Source of the DNA: Lachnospiraceae bacterium
GTDB taxonomy: Bacteria; Bacillota; Clostridia; Lachnospirales; Lachnospiraceae
Assembly: GCA_017613225.1 (NCBI GenBank)
Contig: JAGAEH010000204.1
Location: 1-30,448 of the forward strand
Length of the DNA: 30,448 nucleotides
Direction: 5' to 3'
Shown here: positions 13,086 through 15,143 of the stretch, piece by piece
How the letters are laid out: the number at the start of each line of letters is the position of its first letter
How positions within the stretch are numbered: position 1 is the stretch's first letter
Notes under the pieces: generated by a model
What the model was told of the DNA's origin: nothing
Database searches by the model: none
The model's input: only the letters and a program-made list of their open reading frames with translations
Made by a program: the position numbers and the translations under genes

Positions 13086-13158
<73 letters not shown>

Positions 13159-13212: not shown

Positions 13213-13515
13213 TGTCGGCTTTTTTAGGGGGTTTTCTTTCTGATAGCCGACACTTCCCCTCGTTTTCTTTATAGACCAGGAAAACCAGCGCATGGATGTC
13301 GGCTAAAATCTCGGTTTTGAGCAGATCAAGCCGACATTTCTTTAGGAATCTTTTTATTCATAAAGTGCTTGTAGGGAGTTTTAAGGATATCTGTCGGCCA
13401 CCTGTGGAAAATCTCGTGAAAATAGCCGACACCAGCCACTCGGCACCCTGTCATTACAGTTCCGGATCGTACGTTGGTCGGCTATTTAGGACGTATTTGC
13501 GTTTGGCAGCCAACA
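13213..13515. repeat. Array 1: four units of TGTCGGCT-N24-AGCCGACA
   Basis: Units start at 13213, 13297, 13392 and 13476 (periods 84, 95, 84). The interior is exactly 24 nt in all four but differs in sequence. Units 3 and 4 carry 1-2 substitutions. Confidence 0.9.
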
Positions 13516-13536
13516 GAGAAAAACAAGAGCCCCTGC

Positions 13537-13746
13537 ATCCTACTCCAATACGGTGTAGGGAGACCTTCACTGGACCTCCGAATATCCCACTTATTGGGAC
13601 TAGCCACCAACACGTTTTGTCCGCTAACCCGTATCATGATTGCTCGCACAAAGCAAGAGAATACCGGTACTGAACCTCCGCCCATCAGGCCGAAATCCAA
13701 TACCGGTATCTCGGCTCCTAGATCCTACTTCAATACGAGGCAGGGA
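13537..13746. repeat. Interarray repeats: 25 bp direct repeat pair and paired TACCGGTA palindromes
   Basis: ATCCTACTCCAATACGGTGTAGGGA (13537-13561) vs ATCCTACTTCAATACGAGGCAGGGA (13722-13746), 21/25 identical; AATACCGGTA at 13660 and 13699. Confidence 0.7.
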
Positions 13747-13837: not shown

Positions 13838-14133
13838 AAAGCAGATACTTTGGACAGTAACCGGTTAAAGTATCTGCTTTTGTGTTGAACAGGAATCGTT
13901 CCCGGACCCGGATCCGGGTGATGAAGCAGATACTTCCCCATGTTTTGACCATTTGTATCTGCTGAAAAATGGACTTTGGCATGTGGGAACGTCTGTCATG
14001 ATAAAAATCCAGCAGATACTTTGCCGCAAAAACAGGGCGGGTATCTGCTTTCTATGATCCAGCAAGGTAATCAGACTGCGAAAATGAAGGGAAACAGCAG
14101 ATACTTTACCGAAAAAACCGAAAAGTATCTGCT
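13838..14133. repeat. Array 2: four units of AGCAGATAC-N21(20)-GTATCTGCT
   Basis: Units start at 13840, 13925, 14011 and 14096 (periods 85, 86, 85). AGCAGATACTT is invariant on the left; unit 1 is a perfect 14 bp inverted repeat (AAAGCAGATACTTT/AAAGTATCTGCTTT). Confidence 0.92.
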
Positions 14134-14134
14134 T

Positions 14135-15025
14135 TTACGGCTGATCCTCCTCGGCATAATCCGCCAGCAGTTCTTCGGTCTCGGCATTCAGTGCCAGCGC
14201 TTCGCGGGCCGCGCGCTCTTCCTCCAGCGCGCGGTTTAAGGACGCGCCTAAAAGCAGGATCGTCATCAGGGTGCGCAGCCACATGATCACTAAAAAGATG
14301 GAAGCCAGCGGGCCGTAGTAGGAGGCGGACTTCCAGAATCGCGGAATGAAGAAGGCAAAGCCGCGGGAGAAGCCTTCGCCGATCAGCATGGTAAAGATGG
14401 CGCCGGGCAGCTGGCTCTTCAGGCTCTTGGTGCGGCCGGACAGGAAGGTGTAGGTCAGCACCACCAGGAAGACGGTGACGCCCAGGGTGACCAGCCGGCT
14501 GACGCGCATGATCAGGCCGATCAACACGCCGGAATCCGGGATCAGTTCGATCAGGGCATCCCGGATGGTATCACCCAGCAGGTGGAAGACCAGCAGGGCC
14601 GGCACCAGGATCAGGAGCAGCAGCGTATAGAGGATCACCGTGATGAGGCTGCGCAGCGGGTTTTTGATGTCGTAGACCCGGGCCATGGCCTTCTGCAGAG
14701 CGGCTACGCCCCGGGAAGCGGACCACAGGGACAGGATGGCGGAAACGGAGAGCATCAAGCCCCGGGACTGGCCGCTGATGTTGCGGATCAGGTTCAGGAT
14801 CATGTCCCGGATCTGGTCCAGGTCCGGCAGGATCTTCAGCAGAAAGTGGGAAAGATCGTCCGTATTGAAAAAGGGCAGCAGGTTCACGATGGAGGTGATC
14901 AGCATCAGCAGCGGCACGAAGGACATGACGATGTACAGCGTGGTATGGCCGGCGTACACCGTCATCTCTTTTTGGGAGAAGATCTTCCAGGTGTTCGTGA
15001 TGATGCGTTTCAGCTTTTCTTTCAT
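14135..15025 (-). CDS. YihY/virulence factor BrkB family membrane protein
   Basis: MKEKLK..., AG..TLYIVMSFVPLLML, LSLWSAS.GV.AL.KAM.RVY, KSQLPGAIF, YYGPLASIFLVIMWL, ILLLGASLN; multiple TM helices. Confidence 0.9.
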   Translation of the reverse strand: MKEKLKRIITNTWKIFSQKEMTVYAGHTTLYIVMSFVPLLMLITSIVNLLPFFNTDDLSHFLLKILPDLDQIRDMILNLIRNISGQSRGLMLSVSAILSLWSASRGVAALQKAMARVYDIKNPLRSLITVILYTLLLLILVPALLVFHLLGDTIRDALIELIPDSGVLIGLIMRVSRLVTLGVTVFLVVLTYTFLSGRTKSLKSQLPGAIFTMLIGEGFSRGFAFFIPRFWKSASYYGPLASIFLVIMWLRTLMTILLLGASLNRALEEERAAREALALNAETEELLADYAEEDQP

Positions 15026-15031
15026 GTTTGA

Positions 15032-15060
15032 ATCATAGCGCAAAAAGCCCCCGATTACAA
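15032..15060 (-). promoter_or_regulatory. sigma-A promoter of yihY, probably giving a leaderless mRNA
   Basis: Minus strand TTGTAA (15060-15055), 17 nt, TATGAT (15037-15032), then 6 nt to the ATG at 15025; no SD. Confidence 0.6.
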
Positions 15061-15071
15061 ATTGATTATTG

Positions 15072-15100
15072 TTGACCAAAAATGCAAAGAGAAGTATTAT
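15072..15100 (+). promoter_or_regulatory. sigma-A promoter of pta
   Basis: TTGACC (15072-15077), 17 nt, TATTAT (15095-15100). Confidence 0.65.
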
Positions 15101-15143
15101 CAAGGTAGTATTCCAAATTCAAATCCGAAAGGAGTCTACCGTC

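What the first reader, a model, noticed from the sequence alone, without database searches (positions are those of the whole stretch)
13838..14133. Array 2: AGCAGATAC-N21-GTATCTGCT x4 with periods 85/86/85
Seen: 8 copies of a 9 bp half-site with no mismatch, interiors of 21, 21, 21 and 20 nt, and unique 46-47 nt gaps. The left arm extends to an invariant AGCAGATACTT while the right arm extension varies, so units are directional. It resembles CRISPR or dual-repeat guide arrays in regularity, but repeats are split and no cas or Nop-domain gene is present. It lacks the GTTRRRY cores of integron attC sites.
Basis: partly seen in the sequence, partly recalled or inferred. Interest (0 to 1): 0.75.

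Follow-up and report, generated by a model that had tools for sequence, protein, structure and literature searches.

The report
Four-hairpin repeat family with partner nuclease
The array is real, but it is one of about twenty scattered copies of a small non-coding element made of four hairpin-forming inverted repeats. Arrays of this build lie next to a very large unnamed family of nuclease-like genes in gut Clostridia and share their repeat sequence with the array beside the gene, much as REP repeats pair with their RAYT enzyme.

Summary
In detail: eight exact AGCAGATAC half-sites, interiors of 21/21/21/20 nt and periods of 85/86/85.

It is not a unique locus and not a guide array.
- The same genome (a 74%-complete animal-gut MAG) holds at least 9 arrays with these arms. 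Eight have exactly four hairpins, and all eight share the same hairpin and spacer lengths.
- Sister families have the same layout but other arms: TGTCGGCT (this is Array 1 in the window), CCGGCCGC and TGGTCAG.
- The families with 85-bp layout share two spacer motifs, GGAACnGTTCC and AAATGAGGGGAA. Loops and the rest of the spacers have drifted almost to random.

One family-A array lies 94 nt upstream of an unannotated 283-aa gene.
- The protein's C-terminal half has a PD-(D/E)XK nuclease fold, and it is predicted to form a symmetric dimer.
- Its paralog in this genome is followed by the TGGTCAG arrays.
- In other genomes, 28 of 41 homolog loci carry their own phased inverted-repeat arrays, against 0 of 15 control loci.
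- In two other genomes the arms beside the gene recur at other loci.

I read this as a REP–RAYT-like or NTS–SsnA-like pairing of a repeat with an enzyme of a different class. I found no paper describing it. Earlier notes of this scan report similar array-plus-nuclease-like-gene pairs in other gut bacteria. Binding and cleavage are inferred, not shown.

The parts
13838..13881 (+). Hairpin unit 1 (HP1). Arms are AGCAGATAC (13840-13848) and GTATCTGCT (13870-13878), extending to a 14-bp stem.
   Evidence: ssDNA fold -12.3 kcal/mol, z -6.4
13892..13902 (+). Spacer-1 palindrome GGAATCGTTCC, the local form of the shared motif GGAACnGTTCC.
   Evidence: The position is conserved in families A and B. 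Of 11 genomic copies, 7 lie inside arrays that cover 0.275% of the assembly.
13925..13963 (+). Hairpin unit 2 (HP2), with a 9-bp stem and a 21-nt interior.
13964..14010 (+). Spacer 2 (47 nt). It is A-rich at both ends and has no motif shared across copies.
14011..14049 (+). Hairpin unit 3 (HP3); the interior carries an AAAAAC run.
14082..14093 (+). Spacer-3 motif AAATGAAGGGAA, ending 2 nt before HP4.
   Evidence: The motif is shared by families A and B and by a related species. All 8 genomic copies of AAATGARGGGAA lie inside arrays.
14096..14133 (+). Hairpin unit 4 (HP4). It ends 1 nt before the stop codon of the convergent BrkB/YihY-like gene (14135-15103, minus strand).
13213..13515 (-). Array 1, a sister element of family B (arms TGTCGGCT/AGCCGACA). 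It has the same four-hairpin layout and the same spacer motifs and lies in the opposite orientation.

Best explanation
Array 2 is one copy of a lineage-specific, dispersed, non-coding element of about 295 bp. It is built from four inverted-repeat (hairpin-forming) units at a fixed 85-bp pitch. The arms are most likely the recognition sites of a cognate protein: an uncharacterised 283-aa protein with an N-terminal helical dimerisation hairpin and a C-terminal PD-(D/E)XK (Vsr/DUF559/TnsA-like) nuclease domain. Its gene (own genome, contig C111:1600-2451, minus strand) has a family-A array in its 5' leader. Each paralog of this gene family has its own arm sequence, which would explain why several arm families share one layout. 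I propose that the protein reads each unit as a symmetric dimer, one subunit per arm, and nicks or cuts near it. Recognition by the protein would keep the arms invariant while loops and spacers drift, and its action would seed or maintain arrays at new intergenic sites, as RAYT does for REPs and SsnA does for NTS. Shown here: the dispersal, the fixed layout, the invariance of the arms, the gene-array association, the match of arms between gene-adjacent and dispersed arrays, and the nuclease fold. Inferred: binding, cutting, the substrate form (hairpin, cruciform or duplex) and how copies spread.
For: Dispersal and layout. There are 16 exact units on 7 contigs, with 0 in the reversed-pattern control. 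Nine arrays carry these arms, and eight of them have exactly four units with identical offsets. Hairpin and spacer lengths are the same in all eight.

Arms against the rest. Of 352 arm pair positions, 20 deviate; only 3 of these are in the 8-bp core. Loops and spacers are 32% and 39% identical between copies, against 26% expected from composition.

Sister families. Families B, C and D have other arms at a similar pitch (81-85 bp). Families A, B and C also share the spacer motifs.

Partner gene. The C111 array lies 94 nt upstream of the gene in the same orientation, downstream of a sigma-70-like promoter. The one paralog found in this genome (27% identity) is followed by a family-D array, and family-D arms recur on C184 and C216.

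Other genomes.
- A 63%-identical homolog in a related species, with the same peptidase M20 neighbour, has an upstream array whose arms differ by one base (GCGGATAC) and which carries the same spacer motifs.
- In the closest relative, G001, a homolog is bracketed on both sides by TTCCGTAC arrays of period 85. A four-unit array with the same arms lies on another contig.
- In another genus, G092, the gene is bracketed by TAGTGAA-N19-TTCACTA arrays. The same arms occur at 7 or more further loci with divergent loops.
- By one strict criterion, 28 of 41 homolog loci carry recurrent inverted-repeat arms, against 0 of 15 control loci.

Protein.
- The AlphaFold2 model has pLDDT 89.
- Residues 166-283 match PD-(D/E)XK nucleases: I-Bth0305I with Z 8.6, rmsd 3.0 A over 90 residues; TnsA with Z 8.5; Bax1 with Z 8.2.
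- AlphaFold DB clusters give C-terminal nuclease domains of UvrD-like helicases and DUF559 proteins, with E from 1e-5 to 1e-9.
- Residues E180, D211 and E226 are invariant.
- A symmetric homodimer is predicted with ipSAE 0.67, best of 3 controls 0.00. That mark was reached by 20 of 30 proteins solved as pairs of one chain and by 1 of 23 solved as single chains; these counts hold only roughly because my own alignment was used. The runs agree in at least 97% of contacts and the partner's pLDDT is at least 86.
- The family has 10,808 representative clusters at E <= 0.001 and no name.
Against: - There is no experimental evidence or expression data of any kind.
- No paralog that could serve families B and C was found in the 74%-complete assembly.
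- 13 of 41 homolog loci fail the strict recurrent-arm test. In four of these that I read by eye, repeats or looser inverted-repeat arrays are visible.
- The usual lysine of the (D/E)xK motif is replaced, giving WEH.G, so catalytic activity is uncertain.
- No compensatory arm changes occur within a family (0 of 20 deviations). This fits sequence reading of duplex half-sites as well as it fits hairpin recognition.
- The array in this window is linked to the gene only by identity of the arms, not by adjacency.
- No insertion polymorphism or target-site duplication was seen, so mobility is not shown.
- Similar ideas in earlier notes of this scan are not independent evidence.
Confidence: 0.55

Rival explanations
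1. The partner is the same, but the protein does not cut. On this reading the arrays are helically phased duplex docking sites for a dimeric DNA-binding protein with a regulatory or architectural role. That protein also represses its own gene through the array in its leader.
For: - The pitch of 85 bp is about 8 helical turns.
- Family B tolerates a spacer 2 of 47 nt or of 56-58 nt, a difference of about one turn.
- Arm deviations are never compensated.
- A symmetric dimer is predicted: ipSAE 0.67, best of 3 controls 0.00; the mark was reached by 20 of 30 proteins solved as pairs of one chain and 1 of 23 solved as single chains, counts that hold only roughly with my own alignment; the runs agree in at least 97% of contacts and the partner's pLDDT is at least 86.
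- Arrays abut the promoter or start codon of the partner gene in several genera.
- The canonical catalytic lysine is missing.
Against: - Acidic residues at nuclease positions are invariant across 33 sequences that are only 26-63% identical to the C111 protein.
- The loops carry an oriented A-run/AAAAC motif, and the forward strand is A-rich (83 A-runs against 46 T-runs). This points to a strand-specific substrate.
- Arm sequences and proteins turn over very fast: the best homologs are 43% identical between species whose housekeeping proteins are 85-88% identical. That is more typical of selfish or defence elements than of regulators.
Confidence: 0.22
2. The arrays are independent of that protein. 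They would then be either a MITE-like element moved in trans by an ordinary transposase, or transcribed RNA elements such as multi-hairpin terminators, mRNA stabilisers or a small RNA.
For: - The copies are intergenic among housekeeping genes.
- HP4 often abuts the 3' end of a convergent gene; in this window it lies 1 nt from a stop codon.
- Both strands fold far better than shuffles, with z of -6 and -8.
- The forward strand is purine-rich.
Against: - Orientation relative to flanking genes is not consistent, and there is no conserved promoter.
- Four identical stems give ambiguous nested folds.
- No Rfam family matches.
- Flanks are not conserved and no target duplication is seen.
- The only Y1 transposase gene has different palindromes beside it.
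- This reading leaves the association of 28/41 against 0/15 unexplained.
Confidence: 0.12
3. The array is a CRISPR-like or TIGR-like guide array, in which the 21-nt and 46-nt parts are acquired spacers.
For: The spacing is regular and the sequence between short conserved repeats is variable.
Against: - The number of units is fixed at four in eight of the nine copies.
- The 'spacers' contain conserved motifs.
- The repeats are 9-11-bp inverted arms, not direct repeats.
- Nothing matches phages or plasmids.
- No Cas1 or Nop-domain gene is present in the assembly, and the neighbours are housekeeping genes.
Confidence: 0.02
4. The array is an invertible DNA switch or shufflon, in which a site-specific recombinase flips segments between the inverted arms.
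For: Arms alternate in orientation, the same arms occur at many loci, and elements lie in either orientation relative to flanking genes.
Against: - No serine recombinase and only one tyrosine recombinase were found.
- The spacer motifs keep one relative order and orientation in all 13 full-length family-A and family-B copies, so no internal shuffling has occurred.
- Contigs from three samples show a single form.
Confidence: 0.03

Closest known systems
REP/BIME elements with their RAYT (TnpA-REP, Y1 HUH) gene, 'REPtrons'/REPINs (PMC3479197, PMC3733652)
   Same: - Short palindromic units are dispersed in intergenic DNA.
- Units often cluster with alternating orientation and fixed linkers.
- Each genome has its own repeat sequence.
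- A gene present in one or a few copies is flanked by the same repeats that are scattered through the genome.
   Different: - The enzyme has a PD-(D/E)XK-like fold, not a Y1 HUH fold.
- The arms carry no GTAG or CGTC tag.
- The unit is a split inverted repeat with a 15-21-nt loop, set in a fixed four-unit element of 85-bp pitch with extra spacer motifs.
- The gene sits inside a direct tandem array rather than between inverted REPs.
- The genome's own Y1 gene has different palindromes beside it.
NTS/SRM hairpin repeats with SsnA, a GIY-YIG single-strand nuclease (PMC11893778)
   Same: A hairpin repeat family surrounds the gene of a small site-specific nuclease, and its specificity diverges between homologs. 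The gene was found in the same way, by looking for a gene flanked by the repeats.
   Different: The nuclease superfamily is different. The two GIY-YIG genes of this genome are not flanked by these arms. The repeats here are arrayed in phase, and there are far fewer copies (tens rather than hundreds).
Neisserial intergenic mosaic elements (dRS3 repeats alternating with RS segments; recalled from the literature and PMC11893778)
   Same: Short inverted-repeat boxes with a variable centre alternate with longer variable segments in intergenic arrays.
   Different: NIME arrays vary in length and composition. Here the number of units, the lengths and the spacer motifs are fixed.
CRISPR arrays and TIGR-Tas dual-spacer arrays
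   Same: Short conserved repeats are regularly interspersed with variable sequence.
   Different: There are no direct repeats, no growth in the number of units, no cas or Nop-domain genes, and no spacer matches. The variable parts contain conserved motifs.
Plasmid centromere and iteron arrays next to their binding-protein genes (sopC/SopB, parC/ParR; recalled from the literature)
   Same: Phased arrays of short inverted repeats lie next to the gene of the protein that reads them.
   Different: Here the arrays are chromosomal and dispersed at about 20 loci. The protein has a nuclease fold, and no ParA-type partner was seen beside the arrays examined.

Membership tests
REP/BIME-RAYT | Short palindromic units in many intergenic copies, often clustered in alternating orientation | tested here: met
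   About 20 arrays and some 70 units lie in intergenic DNA of a 1.87-Mb partial genome.
REP/BIME-RAYT | A GTAG or CGTC tetranucleotide tag at one end of the palindrome (title of PMC3733652; the tag's position at one end is recalled from that literature) | tested here: not met
   The arms read AAAGCAGATACTTT, TGTCGGCTA, CCGGCCGCAA and TGGTCAG. None ends in GTAG or CGTC.
REP/BIME-RAYT | A cognate Y1 HUH transposase gene flanked by the same repeats | tested here: not met
   The single Y1_Tnp gene (C160) is followed by unrelated palindromes of the form CAGCACA...TGTGCTG.
SRM/NTS-Ssn | A GIY-YIG (Ssn) gene flanked by the repeat | tested here: not met
   There are two GIY-YIG genes: a UvrC-sized one of 628 aa and one of 85 aa. 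No array arms lie beside the 85-aa gene, and no family A-D cluster lies on the contig of the 628-aa gene.
CRISPR | Identical direct repeats of 23-50 bp, with unique spacers and a variable number of units | tested here: not met
   The repeats are inverted 9-11-bp arms. Eight of the nine copies have four units, and the spacers hold conserved motifs.
CRISPR | cas genes (Cas1) in the genome or beside the array | tested here: not met
   PF01867 was not found in the 74%-complete assembly. The window's neighbours are housekeeping genes.
TIGR-Tas | A Nop-domain Tas gene with the array | tested here: not met
   PF01798 was not found in the assembly.
Integron attC | R''/R' core sites RYYYAAC and GTTRRRY, and cassette ORFs between the sites | tested here: not met
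   The arms do not fit these cores, and the 46-47-nt gaps cannot hold cassettes. The only tyrosine recombinase found is on another contig.
PD-(D/E)XK nuclease superfamily (partner protein) | Restriction-endonuclease-like core fold | tested here: met
   Residues 166-283 match 3r3p_B (Z 8.6), 1t0f_A (Z 8.5) and 8gy8_B (Z 8.2). Foldseek on PDB gives only nuclease folds among its top hits. AlphaFold DB nuclease domains match at rmsd 1.4-3.5 A.
PD-(D/E)XK nuclease superfamily (partner protein) | Catalytic D...(D/E)xK residues | tested here: inconclusive
   E180, D211 and E226 are invariant, but the motif reads WEH.G without the usual lysine. It resembles the DF...E.DG pattern of Vsr/DUF559 proteins, which I recall from memory and did not test.

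The most novel reading that the evidence does not exclude
A previously undescribed and very large class of repeat-enzyme partnerships in gut Clostridia. A dimeric PD-(D/E)XK nuclease (more than 10,000 sequence clusters, 1-6 paralogs per genome) would each recognise its own phased hairpin array and create, maintain or police copies of it across the chromosome. This would be a third independent invention of the REP-RAYT and NTS-SsnA principle. It would also supply a large natural library of nucleases specific for a sequence and a DNA structure.
Probability: 0.4. Interest if true: 0.8.

Novelty: new variant of a known kind. Interest (0 to 1): 0.68.

Why it matters
If the pairing holds, it gives a function and a substrate to a huge family of hypothetical proteins: 10,808 clusters at 50% identity, found in about a third of the genera sampled in this bacterial family. 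It would also explain a class of intergenic repeats that break metagenome assemblies; most homologs sit on contigs of 1-4 kb. It would add a third enzyme class to the short list of repeat families that have a dedicated nuclease. The discovery of SsnA showed that such enzymes can be site-specific single-strand nucleases with practical uses. Here each paralog appears to have its own 8-11-nt specificity, and that specificity can be read directly from the array next to the gene.

Tried and rejected
- Scans for the family-A arms found no true relative. They covered 40 relatives, all species representatives and metagenome contigs (the single hit was an unrelated 22-bp tandem repeat).
- A scan for the two shared spacer motifs across all species gave 12 hits, about the number expected by chance, and none had arrays.
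- Family-B arms occurred in none of 200 other genera, apart from one chance hit.
- Laying contigs of four runs on the locus showed identical sequence and no inversion. The one 'goes back 55' joint most likely comes from another family-A copy. Contigs cannot show rare forms.
- No RNA holder was listed among the sequencing runs, so expression could not be examined.
- I gave up on a covariance model spanning families A and B. MAFFT put the arms of the two families one column out of register, and alignments cannot be edited.
- Orthologous loci in relatives (upstream of hisS, downstream of clpC, downstream of brkB) could not show insertion polymorphism. Synteny breaks there, or the contigs end.
- RAYT, GIY-YIG, serine recombinase and tyrosine recombinase genes were each checked as partners and rejected.
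- One pattern for the second G001 arm family was mis-specified and returned nothing. It says nothing either way.
- Pfam, NCBIfam and a PDB sequence search gave no significant hit for the partner protein. Precomputed PF20586 (DUF6788) hits on two homologs were not reproduced by my own scan.
- Looking up the partner protein among earlier findings of this scan found nothing.

Full report
**1.

AGCAGATAC occurs eight times in the 30-kb window, all within 13840-14133. Four copies are on each strand and the expectation is 0.12. Left arms start at 13840, 13925, 14011 and 14096. Interiors are 21/21/21/20 nt and gaps are 46/47/46 nt. Each unit folds as a single-stranded DNA hairpin, with dG from -6.4 to -12.3 kcal/mol and z from -4.1 to -8.3.

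The region lies in a 1.2-kb non-coding gap. On one side is tRNA-Thr (13086-13158). On the other is the 3' end of a BrkB/YihY-like gene (14135-15103, minus strand), whose stop codon is 1 nt from the last arm.

**2. It is a dispersed element with a fixed build.**

The window's genome is a MAG of 1.87 Mb in 269 contigs, 74% complete. Its DNA is held by animal-gut runs.
- It contains 16 exact AGCAGATAC-N18-24-GTATCTGCT units on 7 contigs, with none for the reversed control.
- Allowing one mismatch gives 9 arrays. Eight have exactly four hairpins with identical offsets (0, 29-30, 84-85, 114-115, 170-171, 200-201, 255-256, 284-285). The ninth, on C8, has seven units through tandem duplication of the last unit.
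- Isolated 9-mers occur at the rate of the reversed control.

After orienting all copies, hairpins measure 36-37 nt between the 8-mer cores and spacers measure 48/49/48 nt in every copy. The flanks are unrelated and show no target duplication.

Three features besides the arms are conserved:
- GGAACnGTTCC, about 14 nt after hairpin 1.
- AAATGAGGGGAA, ending 2-3 nt before hairpin 4.
- An A-run/AAAAC in the loops, on one strand.

All 8 genomic copies of AAATGARGGGAA and 7 of the 11 copies of GGAACnGTTCC lie inside arrays that cover 0.275% of the assembly. Everything else has drifted. Loops are 32% and spacers 39% identical between copies, against 26% expected. Only 20 of 352 arm pair positions deviate, and just 3 of those are in the 8-bp core. 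The forward strand is A-rich, with 83 A-runs against 46 T-runs.

**3. Sister families have the same layout and other arms.**

An unbiased search for recurrent inverted repeats found more families:
- Family B has arms TGTCGGCT/AGCCGACA and five arrays. One of them is 'Array 1' of this window at 13213-13515, in the opposite orientation.
- Family C has arms CCGGCCGC and three arrays.
- Family D has arms TGGTCAG, three arrays and a period of 81.

Families A, B and C share the two spacer motifs at the same positions. In family B, spacer 2 is either 47 nt or 56-58 nt long, a difference of about one helical turn.

So the arms differ completely between families yet always remain an inverted pair. Within a family they are invariant and deviations are never compensated (0 of 20). 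This pattern is expected if each family is read by its own sequence-specific factor.

**4. The genomic context is uninformative.**

The neighbours are housekeeping genes: clpC, hisS, tsaB, M20 and M42 peptidases, cyclophilin, an aminotransferase, lpdA and others. Orientation relative to them is not consistent.

The arms are absent from 40 relatives, including 7 species of the same genus, and from the species-representative collection. The single metagenome hit was an unrelated tandem repeat. Contigs from three samples are identical over the locus.

**5. A partner gene.**

The known precedents (REP-RAYT; NTS-SsnA, PMC11893778) and earlier notes of this scan led me to look for a gene that sits next to an array. 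The genome's Y1 transposase has different palindromes beside it, and its GIY-YIG genes have none of these arms.

The family-A array on contig C111, however, lies 94 nt upstream of an unannotated 283-aa ORF. It has the same orientation as the ORF and lies downstream of a TTGACA-18-AACAAT promoter-like site. The protein has no significant Pfam, NCBIfam or PDB sequence match.

Its homologs are nameless proteins of Bacillota, mostly on contigs of 1-4 kb. The family comprises 10,808 representative clusters at E <= 0.001.

The AlphaFold2 model has pLDDT 89.
- The N-terminus is a long helical hairpin.
- Residues 166-283 have a PD-(D/E)XK fold. Matches are I-Bth0305I (Z 8.6, rmsd 3.0 A over 90 residues), TnsA (Z 8.5) and Bax1 (Z 8.2), plus AlphaFold DB nuclease domains of UvrD-like helicases and DUF559 proteins.
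- Invariant residues include E180, D211 and E226, in the motifs VRSKSE, PDF and WEH.GMM.

A symmetric homodimer through the helical hairpin is predicted.
- ipSAE is 0.67, and the best of 3 controls is 0.00.
- That mark was reached by 20 of 30 proteins solved as pairs of one chain and by 1 of 23 solved as single chains. These counts hold only roughly, because my own alignment was used.
- The runs agree in at least 97% of contacts, and the partner's pLDDT is at least 86.

**6. The association is general.**

- The only paralog found in this genome (C234, 27% identity) is followed directly by a family-D array, and family-D arms recur on C184 and C216.
- A 63%-identical homolog from a related species, with the same peptidase M20 neighbour, has an upstream array whose arms differ by one base (GCGGATAC). 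It has the same two spacer motifs.
- The genus holds 1-6 copies of the gene in six of the seven other genomes searched.
- In the closest relative, G001, one copy is bracketed on both sides by TTCCGTAC-N24-GTACGGAA units of period 85, and a four-unit array with the same arms lies on another contig. A second copy there follows GCGGACGC units of period 85 that carry an AAAACGAGGGAAA motif.
- The gene is present in 20 of 60 other genera of the same family.
- In G092 the gene is bracketed by TAGTGAA-N19-TTCACTA arrays of period 74. The same arms occur at 7 or more other loci with divergent loops, which is exactly the pattern seen here.

One strict criterion was applied throughout: the same exact 7-mer arm forms two or more hairpins within about 1.5 kb of the gene. 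The loop window was slightly wider (6-34 nt rather than 14-30) for the 24 loci from other genera. By this test 28 of 41 homolog loci are positive, against 0 of 15 control loci (the neighbourhoods of hisS, clpC and brkB in the same genomes). In four of the 'negative' loci that I read by eye, repeats or looser inverted-repeat arrays are visible.

The proteins turn over fast. The best G000-G001 pair is 43% identical, while hisS and clpC are 85-88% identical.

**7. Interpretation.**

The best reading is a repeat-enzyme pair of the REP-RAYT or NTS-SsnA kind, with a different enzyme class and a distinctive phased four-hairpin element.

Shown: the dispersal, the layout, arm invariance against drift elsewhere, the association, the arm match, the nuclease fold and the predicted dimer.

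Inferred: that the protein binds the arms, whether it cuts, whether its substrate is a hairpin, a cruciform or duplex DNA, and how copies arise.

The main rival keeps the partner but makes it a non-cutting DNA-binding protein that reads helically phased sites. The phasing, the uncompensated arm changes and the missing catalytic lysine favour that rival. The invariant acidic residues, the strand-oriented loop motif and the fast turnover favour a nuclease.

Guide-array, attC, invertible-switch and pure RNA readings are poorly supported.

Gaps remain. No partner was found for families B and C in the incomplete assembly. There is no expression or strain data, and no evidence of mobility.

**8. Novelty.**

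I found no paper describing this gene family or its pairing with arrays.

Earlier notes of this scan report similar 'phased array plus unnamed nuclease-like gene' pairs in other gut bacteria. I could not check whether they concern the same gene family; look-ups with two members of this family (P0001 and P0037) found nothing.

Noticed in passing
window 13213-13515 (minus orientation): Array 1 is a family-B copy of the same four-hairpin element, with arms TGTCGGCT/AGCCGACA. It lies tail to tail with Array 2. Four more family-B arrays sit on C60, C127, C130 and C187, and a solitary unit on C250.
   Followed up: yes
window 13529-13561 and 13714-13746: A third repeat lies between the two arrays, 33 nt long and containing CCTACTCCAATACG. 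Copies with up to 2 mismatches occur at 9 places on 8 contigs of the genome. Its nature is unknown.
   Followed up: partly
G000:C160, L027:1465-2199 and 2196-2307: The genome's only Y1_Tnp (IS200/RAYT-like) gene is followed by three REP-like palindromes (CAGCACAAAAGGACCGTCCC..TGTGCTG). This is a separate, classical REP-type family.
   Followed up: partly
G000:C234:4490-4760: A different tandem repeat lies upstream of the paralogous nuclease-like gene. Its units contain TTTGTCTGG...CTGAAGCAGG and it is found only at that locus.
   Followed up: no
window 14133-14137: The stop codon of the BrkB/YihY-like gene (minus strand) lies 1 nt from hairpin 4. On that gene's transcript the hairpin is followed by a U/C-rich tract, so it may double as the gene's terminator.
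   Followed up: no
Homolog list: Most homologs of the partner protein sit on contigs of only 1-4 kb, and several relatives' contigs end right at the gene. The flanking arrays probably break short-read assemblies, so the system is likely under-represented in MAGs.
   Followed up: no
G017:C93:9286-9528: Another genus carries a five-unit array with the same 7-mer arms as G092 (TAGTGAA/TTCACTA) but a period of 53 and other loops. This could be coincidence or a related specificity.
   Followed up: no
L065:1-1464 (G000:C57): A long ORF is built from ten or more 123-nt (41-aa) coding repeats, next to a small 85-aa GIY-YIG gene.
   Followed up: no
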